Source: Mobula hypostoma
Taxonomy: Eukaryota
NCBI RefSeq assembly: GCF_963921235.1
Contig: NC_086108.1
Coordinates: 50,160,001 to 50,220,000, forward strand
Direction of reading: 5' to 3'
DNA: 60,000 nt
Positions 25,731 through 27,349 of this stretch are shown one piece after another (position 1 is the stretch's first letter; every line of letters starts with the position of its first letter). A model generated the notes under the pieces. The model had not been told where the DNA came from. It was given only the letters and a program-made list of their open reading frames with translations, and searched no databases. The translations under genes were made by a program, and so were the position numbers.

Positions 25731-27349
25731 CATTTGAAGTCAGAAGTTTACATACACCTTAGCCAAATACAGTTAAACTCAGTTTTTCACAATTCCTGAC
25801 ATTTAATCCTAGAAAACATTACCTGTCTTAGATCAGTTAGGATCACTACTTTATTTTAAGAATGTGAAATGTCAGAATAATAGTAGAGAGAATGATTTAT
25901 TTCAGTTTTTATTTCTTTCATCACTTTCCCAGTGGGTCAGAAGTTTACATACGTTTTGTTAGTATTTGGTAGCATTGCCTTTAAATTGTTTAACTTGGGT
26001 CAAACGTTTTGGTTAGCCTTCCACAAGTTTCTCACAGTAAGTTACTGGAATTTTGTTCCATTCCTCCAGACAGAACTGGTATAACTGAGTCAGGTTTGTA
26101 GGCTTCCTGGCTCGCATATGCTTTTTCAGTTCTGCCCACAAATTTTCTATCGGGTTGAGGTCAGGGCTTTGTAATGGCCACTCCAATACCTTGGCTTTGT
26201 TGTCCTTAAGCAATTTTGCCACAACTTTGGAGGTATGCTTGGGGTCATTGTCCATTTGGAAGACCCATTTGTGACTGAGCTTTAACTTCCTGGCTGATGT
26301 CTTGAGATGTTGCTTCAATATATCCACATAATTTTCCTTCCTCATGACGCCATTTATTTTGTGAAGTGCACCAGTCCCTCCTGCAGCAAAGCACCCCCAC
26401 AACATGATGCTGCCACCCCCATGCTTCACGGTTGGGATGGTGTTCTTTGGCTTGCAAGCCTCACCCTCTTTCCTCCAAACAGAACAATGGTCATTATTGC
26501 CAAACAGTTCAATTTTTGTTTCATCAGACCAGAGGACATTTCTCCAAAAAGTAAGATCTTTGTCCCCATGTGCACTTGCAAACTGCAGTCTGACTTTTTT
26601 ATGGCTGTTTTGGAGCAGTGGCTTCTTCCGTGCTGAGCGGCCTTTCAGGTTATGTCGATATAGGATTCGTTTTACTGTGGATATAGATACTTGTCTACCT
26701 GTTTCCTCCAGCATCTTCACAAGGTCCTTTGCTGTTGTTCTGGGCCAAAGTACCTTCATCTCTAGGAGACAGAATGCGTCTTCTTCCTGAGCAGTATGAT
26801 GGCTGTATGGTCCCATGGTGTATATACTTGCGTACTATTGTTTGTACAGATGAACGTGGTACCTTCAGGTGTTTGGAAATTGCTCCCAAGGATGAACCAG
26901 ACTTGACATCATTTTTTGACCTCAATCCAATAGAAAATTTGTGGGCAGAACTGAAAAAGCATGTGTGAGCAAGGAGGCCTACAAACCTGACTCAGTTACA
27001 CCAGTTCTGTCTGGAGGAATGGAACAAAATTCCAGCAACTTACTGTGAGAAGCTTGTGGAAGGCTACCCAAAACATTTGACCCAAGTTAAACAATTTAAA
27101 GGCAATGCTACCAAATACTAACAAAGTGTATGTAAACTTCTGACCCACTGGGAAAGTGATGAAAGAAATAAAAGCTGAAATAAATCATTCTCTCTACTAT
27201 TATTTTGACATTTCACATTCTTAAAATAAAGTAGTGATCCTAACTGACCTAAGACAAGGAATGTTTTCTAGGATTAAATATCAGGGATTGTGAAAAACTG
27301 AGTTTAAATGTATTTGGCTTAGGTGTATGTGAACTTCTGACTTCAACTG
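25731..27349 (-). mobile_element. Sleeping Beauty-like Tc1 (DD34E, IR/DR) transposon, rearranged
   Basis: TA TSD; termini catttgaagtc / gacttcaactg; transposase WSDETK...QMDNDPKH...[11 protein letters not shown] on - (about 25960-26905) with a frameshift and a stop; 26917-27349 is an inverted duplicate of 25731-26163. Confidence 0.95.

What the first reader, a model, noticed from the sequence alone, without database searches (positions are those of the whole stretch)
25731..27349. Sleeping Beauty-like transposon with two right ends: a 433-bp giant TIR containing coding sequence
Seen: 26917-27349 is the reverse complement of 25731-26163, i.e. the transposase 3' end (from DLNPIENLW) plus the complete 3' IR/DR. 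The normal left IR/DR, 5' UTR and first ~19 codons are absent, yet both outer ends abut TA. Known: SB left and right IR/DRs are not equivalent, and right-right constructs are reported to be poor substrates. Inference: either a symmetric right-right derivative that transposed as a unit (a MITE precursor formed by template switching or abortive gap repair), or a local rearrangement. The arms have since diverged (e.g. TAA vs TAC at the EGY codon). Inside an NCF2 intron it would also form a long dsRNA hairpin.
Basis: partly seen in the sequence, partly recalled or inferred. Interest (0 to 1): 0.72.

Follow-up and report, generated by a model that had tools for sequence, protein, structure and literature searches.

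The report
Dead transposon with two right ends
A dead Sleeping Beauty-type jumping gene in an intron of a ray's NCF2 gene has had its left end replaced by a flipped copy of its right end, a rearrangement already known from insect mariner elements, and whether this copy ever jumped in that form could not be tested.

Summary
The structure is real. 25731-26163 and 26917-27349 are an ungapped 433-nt inverted pair, 24 mismatches, TA outside each. A full-length salmonid-type element (L001, 1639 bp) shows the left 444 nt replaced by the inverted right end plus 11 nt. Those 11 nt are not random: they belong to an exact 12-nt piece of the 5' UTR, joined by 2-3-nt microhomologies, so two switches made the junction. 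Arm-specific changes (2.9% per arm) equal the copy's own decay inside (about 2.7%): the rearrangement dates from about the time of insertion. The copy is dead (no ATG, frameshift, stops, damaged terminus) and lies in an NCF2 intron of a ray. TA at both ends does not separate the models. The 5'-by-3' replacement is published for mariner (Rpmar49, Rpmar17); I found no report for an IR/DR element. Earlier scan notes record this family in this genome, not this structure.

The parts
25729..25730 (.). TA flanking the native right end
25731..26163 (-). Arm A: native 3' end of the element (codons 274-340, stop, right IR/DR). Terminus CAT instead of CAG (25733); premature TAA at 26013-26015; DR cores at 25739-25755 and 25936-25952
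26164..26905 (-). Unique middle: transposase codons 20-273, with D153 and D244 kept (E279 lies in the arms)
26744..26745 (-). 20-nt deletion (reference 606-625), frameshift in the DNA-binding region
   Evidence: loose ends of normal copies at 26744/26745
26904..26916 (-). Junction: exact 12-nt remnant of the 5' UTR (reference 264-275; 26904-26915) plus one mismatched base; CA microhomology to the ORF (reference 445-446), CA(G) microhomology to the inverted arm
26917..27349 (+). Arm B: second, inverted copy of the 3' end standing where the left end should be; stop at 26966-26968 (codon 290); DR cores at 27126-27144 and 27323-27341, outer core with one substitution
27350..27351 (.). TA flanking arm B
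28821..28879 (-). NCF2 exon upstream of the host intron
25179..25331 (-). NCF2 exon downstream of the host intron (start of the PB1 region, label recalled); the element ends about 400 nt before its acceptor

Best explanation
One Sleeping Beauty/Tss1-type Tc1 element had its left end replaced by an inverted copy of a right end while the family was still active in the ray lineage. Most likely mechanism (inferred): repair synthesis at a transposase-made break. A strand priming at the left boundary, where the two termini are near-identical for 27 nt, copied a right end inward for 433 nt; it was joined through a CA(G) microhomology to 12-13 nt of the 5' UTR and through a CA microhomology to codon 19/20 of the ORF, which removed promoter region, start codon and left IR/DR with its half-DR. 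Shown: anatomy, both microhomologies, loss of coding capacity, arm divergence matching the age of the copy. Inferred: the repair pathway and the role of transposase. Open: whether this happened at this site (I put about 0.45 overall) or in a progenitor that was then moved in trans as a right-right unit (about 0.3). Since then both arms decayed; the copy has no evident function.
For: Exact colinearity with two full-length references, no indels in either arm. 12-nt UTR match at the junction, chance 0.0006. Arm-specific changes 16 and 9 of 433 (difference not significant, p=0.23), mean 2.9%; private amino-acid-changing substitutions in the middle 12 per 452 sites, 2.7% (CI 1.4-4.6%; Fisher p=0.86 against the arms). 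Nine internal substitutions are shared with a Mobula-named protein, so much of the distance to the salmonid type is family-level; of the 7 amino-acid changes shared by both arms, 5 (codons 288, 303, 312, 313, 317) occur in other relatives. Length gained (171) equals length lost (171), easier to see in an event within one element. Precedent: Rpmar49 and Rpmar17. Terminal damage by transposase nicking is described for IR/DR elements.
Against: No empty site, orthologue or second copy could be examined. A deletion between two opposed copies gives the same junction and is what PMC4678618 proposes for the mariner cases. The internal decay rate rests on one ray protein that is itself decayed (19 private changes) and on amino-acid changes only. 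The 19 differences shared by both arms are absent or minor in the four laid runs as far as the shown rows go, and 2 of the 7 shared amino-acid changes (codons 305, 309) occur in none of the 9 proteins compared, so some could be private changes that predate the duplication. The 171/171 balance was noticed after the fact and assumes the ray family has the reference's length.
Confidence: 0.72

Rival explanations
1. Two separate copies inserted close together, left ends facing (for example by local hopping), and a microhomology-mediated deletion removed both left ends and the host DNA between them; a second deletion removed 171 nt.
For: Arm-arm distance (5.5%) is what two independent copies of one burst would show; each outer TA is expected; this is the route proposed for Rpmar49 and Rpmar17 progenitors.
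Against: Needs two insertions and one or two deletions in one intron; no other remnant of the family lies in the 60-kb window; gives no reason for the unit to end at the family's own length.
Confidence: 0.2
2. Late gene conversion or duplication at this locus, long after insertion, copying arm A over the left end.
For: Both arms share 19 differences from the salmonid-type reference.
Against: The arms differ by about twice the copy's own decay; most shared amino-acid changes are family-type states seen in relatives; neither arm's stop codon is shared.
Confidence: 0.04
3. Assembly artefact (fold-back read or mis-joined repeat).
For: No reads from the host could be laid.
Against: Fold-back artefacts give near-identical arms; these differ at 24 sites, end exactly at the element's termini with different flanks, and are joined by a templated 12-nt piece; NCF2 exons on both sides are in order.
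Confidence: 0.02
4. Autointegration or nested insertion product (one end pasted into the element or into another copy).
For: An earlier scan note describes such a scrambled Tc1 copy elsewhere in this genome (unchecked).
Against: Such products put a transposon terminus and a TA at the internal junction and do not duplicate 433 nt (general knowledge); this junction has neither, and both termini face outward.
Confidence: 0.02

Closest known systems
Rpmar49 and Rpmar17, mariner lineages of Rhodnius prolixus (PMC4678618; passages and section 13 read)
   Same: 5' part replaced by an inverted 3' part; long TIR that contains transposase coding sequence; attributed to abortive gap repair.
   Different: Those are short-TIR mariners, shortened to about 900-970 bp and multi-copy (13 homogeneous copies of Rpmar49; 227 rearranged copies with varied breakpoints for Rpmar17). 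This is an IR/DR Tc1 element of near full length, known from one copy.
Dromar7, Dromar11, Dromar28, Dromar36 MITE sublineages of Drosophila (PMC4161770; passages read)
   Same: One end replaced by the other, giving unusually long TIRs.
   Different: There the 5' end replaces the 3' end, and the products are short and amplified.
Sleeping Beauty / Tss1 (SB100X 5CR4; L001 and L008; PMC7827188, PMC5224488, PMC6362248 passages)
   Same: 93.9% nucleotide identity over 1175 aligned bases and 88% amino-acid identity to L001; DD34E triad, IR/DR with two DRs per end, TA flanks.
   Different: No left IR/DR, no half-DR-like motif, no start codon; ray host with its own diagnostic residues. The 2022 survey lists SB only in ray-finned fishes and one mollusc (PMC9777934).
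Engineered symmetric SB substrates LoLi/LiLo, RoRi/RiRo and pT3 (named in bioRxiv 10.1101/659086; PMC8151067)
   Same: Two copies of one end; RoRi/RiRo is the laboratory analogue.
   Different: Natural, carries coding sequence in the arms. I saw no activity figure for RoRi/RiRo; passages say that duplicating the left TIR raises efficiency and that the half-DR is an enhancer, not essential.

Membership tests
Tc1/DD34E, Sleeping Beauty (Tss1) group | DD34E transposase closely similar to SB | tested here: met
   E 7e-119 to SB100X; D153, D244, E279 present; Pfam DDE_3, HTH_Tnp_Tc3_2, HTH_SB; 88% aa to L001.
Tc1/DD34E, Sleeping Beauty (Tss1) group | IR/DR ends with two direct repeats each | tested here: met
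   DR cores at 9 and 206 nt from each end, as in L001.
Tc1/DD34E, Sleeping Beauty (Tss1) group | TA dinucleotides at both ends | tested here: met
   That they are one duplicated target could not be tested without an empty site.
Canonical autonomous SB element | Distinct left IR/DR with half-DR, 5' UTR and intact 340-aa ORF | tested here: not met
   Left 444 nt replaced; a half-DR-like motif at reference 155 is found in the left TIR only, in neither arm (its identity with the published half-DR is my inference); frameshift and stops.
3'-3' rearranged Tc1/mariner derivatives (Rpmar49/Rpmar17 type) | 5' part replaced by an inverted 3' part, long TIR with coding sequence | tested here: met
3'-3' rearranged Tc1/mariner derivatives (Rpmar49/Rpmar17 type) | Several copies with different flanks (amplified sublineage) | not testable with these tools
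MITE | Short and high copy number | tested here: not met
   1619 bp against 1639 bp; copy number unknown.

The most novel reading that the evidence does not exclude
A natural right-right Sleeping Beauty sublineage, lacking the left-end enhancer, was mobilised in trans to many sites in a ray genome, and kept the exact unit length of its parent (444 nt replaced by 444 nt) because IR/DR transposition or the in-register repair that makes such elements constrains length. That would be the first amplified end-swap derivative of an IR/DR element that I could find, against the published view that IR/DR structure suppresses such derivatives and favours the left end.
Probability: 0.3. Interest if true: 0.6.

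Novelty: new member of a known kind. Interest (0 to 1): 0.3.

Why it matters
As a single dead copy it is a clean fossil of microhomology-mediated end replacement, of interest mainly to people who study how Tc1/mariner elements decay. If a genome count shows many copies, it becomes a natural test of two claims from Sleeping Beauty engineering: that the left end with its half-DR is the preferred end, and that IR/DR elements do not spawn non-autonomous derivatives (PMC5224488). The test is one BLAST against the host assembly. The family's presence in a ray at 94% identity to the salmonid type points to horizontal transfer, which an earlier scan note already covers.

Tried and rejected
Genome-wide junction count: impossible, no genome held. 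Sequencing runs: 24 listed, none holds half of the words, best share 0.24; 4 of the 24 were laid on 26607-27506: all carry the salmonid-type letters in the rows shown, the shown loose ends at 26905 and 26917 continue as normal element, none of the 32 listed pieces (of about 215,000) bridges the junction, and the flank is not covered, so these are not the host and the blank says nothing on the ray; 20 letter rows, 105 joints and 1951 loose ends were not shown. The laid stretch held one arm only, so an empty site could not have appeared as a skip. Junction pattern: 0 matches in viral contigs, 0 of 58 loci, 1 match in the window, itself. Junction-spanning peptide: none of the 120 listed of 219 hits carries the antisense arm before the transposase; of 10 hits among representatives, 5 were read and none is a junction copy, P0248 being the antisense frame of a normal element. 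These libraries hold little ray repeat DNA, so all are weak. Alternative source of the filler (the A-run just before codon 19) rejected: needs several indels against an exact 12-nt match. Editing: no host RNA. Right-right activity figure: not found in searches or in the passages; the 2002 primary paper is not held. A report of end-swapped IR/DR elements, or of SB in rays: not found in searches (open-access library only; Repbase and Dfam not searchable). Supplementary table S1 of PMC9777934, which lists SB elements with TIRs up to 415 bp, was not opened and may hold a similar case.

Full report
Observation. The inverted repeat is as described. 25731-26163 and 26917-27349 pair without gaps at 409 of 433 positions, a TA lies outside each, and pairing ends abruptly at 26164/26916. 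There are 18 transitions and 6 transversions, spread evenly over the coding part (11 in 206 nt) and the IR/DR (13 in 227 nt). The minus strand carries a transposase matching SB100X at E 7e-119 with Pfam DDE_3, HTH_Tnp_Tc3_2 and HTH_SB domains. No other remnant of this family lies in the window.

Reference. A scan of metagenome contigs gave 58 loci, of which L001 and L008 hold complete 1639-bp, TA-flanked elements; L001 has an intact 340-codon ORF. The window copy is 93.9% identical to L001 over 1175 aligned bases and 88% in protein. [quoted passage not shown]

Anatomy. Read on the minus strand the copy is: the last 433 nt of the element inverted; 11 nt; then reference position 445 to the end. 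The 11 nt are the main new result. With the following CA they contain an exact 12-nt match to reference 264-275 in the 5' UTR, found once in the reference, expected 0.0006 times by chance in both strands. The arm joins it where both donors read CA(G), with one base now mismatched, and it joins the ORF at a shared CA, skipping 171 nt with the start codon. So two microhomology switches made the junction. The UTR piece may be a remnant left in place or a templated insertion; the sequence cannot tell. The swap adds 171 nt and the deletion removes 171 nt: 444 nt were replaced by 444 nt (443 against L008), and the copy differs from the reference length only by a separate 20-nt deletion. I noticed this after the fact and cannot explain it with confidence.

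State. The copy is dead: no ATG, a 20-nt frameshift at 26744/26745, TAA at codon 323 in arm A, TGA at codon 290 in arm B. The catalytic triad is kept. The terminus at 25731 reads CAT for CAG and the outer DR core of arm B has a substitution. Damage at the very ends of IR/DR elements is ascribed to transposase nicking (PMC5224488, passages); a CAG change at one end still allowed excision footprints in a cell assay (bioRxiv 10.1101/659086, passages). A motif resembling half a DR occurs at reference 155 in the left TIR and in neither arm.

Timing. Against L001 the arms share 19 differences and have 16 and 9 of their own (p=0.23 for the imbalance). A Mobula-named protein, P0097, shares nine internal amino-acid changes with this copy, so a ray subfamily exists. 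Setting those aside, the middle has 12 private changes per 452 non-synonymous sites (2.7%, CI 1.4-4.6%), against 2.9% per arm. The arms therefore parted about when the copy began to decay. This disfavours late conversion. It does not separate repair in place, a mobile progenitor, or two copies from one burst. The estimate leans on one decayed protein that does not cover the arm region; 5 of the 7 amino-acid changes shared by the arms occur in other relatives, 2 in none of nine.

Host. Exons of a Mobula-named NCF2 (P0121) map in order along the minus strand at 83-100% identity of the aligned pieces. The element fills 1619 nt of the intron 25332-28820, same sense as the gene, ending about 400 nt before the acceptor. 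In pre-mRNA the arms could form a stem of 409 Watson-Crick and 7 G-U pairs with 17 mismatches, longest unbroken run 75 bp (fold of 1500 of the 1619 nt, -738 kcal/mol, no shuffle control). This is expected of any such repeat, and an 865-nt inverted pair at 87.6% lies in another intron of the same gene. There is no evidence here of editing or function.

Mobility. This is the deciding question and I could not answer it. No genome is held. None of 24 runs holds half of the words; the four laid are salmonid-type, continue as normal elements at both breakpoints in the rows shown, and miss the flank. Pattern and peptide searches for a second junction were blank, in collections with little ray repeat DNA. 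TA at both ends is predicted by every model and so is no evidence of a unit jump.

Known kinds. Replacement of the 5' part by the 3' part, with coding sequence in the long TIR, is published for Rpmar49 and Rpmar17 (PMC4678618, passages and section 13); the reverse for Drosophila mariners (PMC4161770, passages). For SB, passages read say the left TIR has a half-DR enhancer that is not essential (PMC7827188), that duplicating the left TIR raises efficiency (PMC8151067), that SB like mariners works best with two copies of its preferred end (PMC4505599), and that IR/DR elements seem not to give rise to amplified deleted copies (PMC5224488). That right-right SB is poor is recalled; I saw no figure. 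I found no report of an end-swapped IR/DR element in searches. The SB survey lists no cartilaginous fish for SB (PMC9777934, passages and Table 1; supplement not opened); with 88% transposase identity against 46% for NCF2 between a ray and a teleost horizontal transfer is likely, as an earlier scan note also concluded. PMC6362248 (passages) gives SB as 1638 nt; PMC3878927 gave no hits.

Verdict. Real, well resolved, and of a known kind in a new family. Origin by template switching in one element 0.72; two-copy deletion 0.2; chance that it is an amplified right-right sublineage about 0.3. Interest 0.3, about 0.6 if the junction proves multi-copy.

Noticed in passing
window 25731-27349: The end swap adds 171 nt and the UTR/ATG deletion removes 171 nt, so the unit plus its separate 20-nt deletion equals the 1639 bp of the references. 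Post hoc; unexplained.
   Followed up: partly
window 25729-25733 and 27350-27354: The damaged terminus makes both junctions read TACAT, a 5-nt direct repeat; a point change or nicking scar is simplest, copying from the flank is possible.
   Followed up: partly
window 26695-26991, minus strand: A stop-free frame of 98 codons runs from the antisense arm across the junction into transposase codon 20; it has no ATG before the junction.
   Followed up: yes
window 44222-45081 and 45641-46485: A second long inverted pair, 865 nt at 87.6%, inside another NCF2 intron; two ORFs tested gave no Pfam hit. Penelope-like by my recall only.
   Followed up: partly
window 20557-23415 and 40290-42599: Two LINE copies, 95.7% identical over 2316 nt, with long open frames of 802 and 738 aa; the second seems inserted in another LINE-like frame (38662-40296, 42561-43025).
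   Followed up: no
L040:1-3030: A Tc1-like element with 1004-nt terminal inverted repeats (99.7%) that hold no transposase sequence and begin like SB ends; may be natural or an assembly collapse.
   Followed up: partly
P0097: A protein annotated as a LACTB2 isoform of Mobula hypostoma is mostly a piece of this transposase family: exonisation or mis-annotation.
   Followed up: partly
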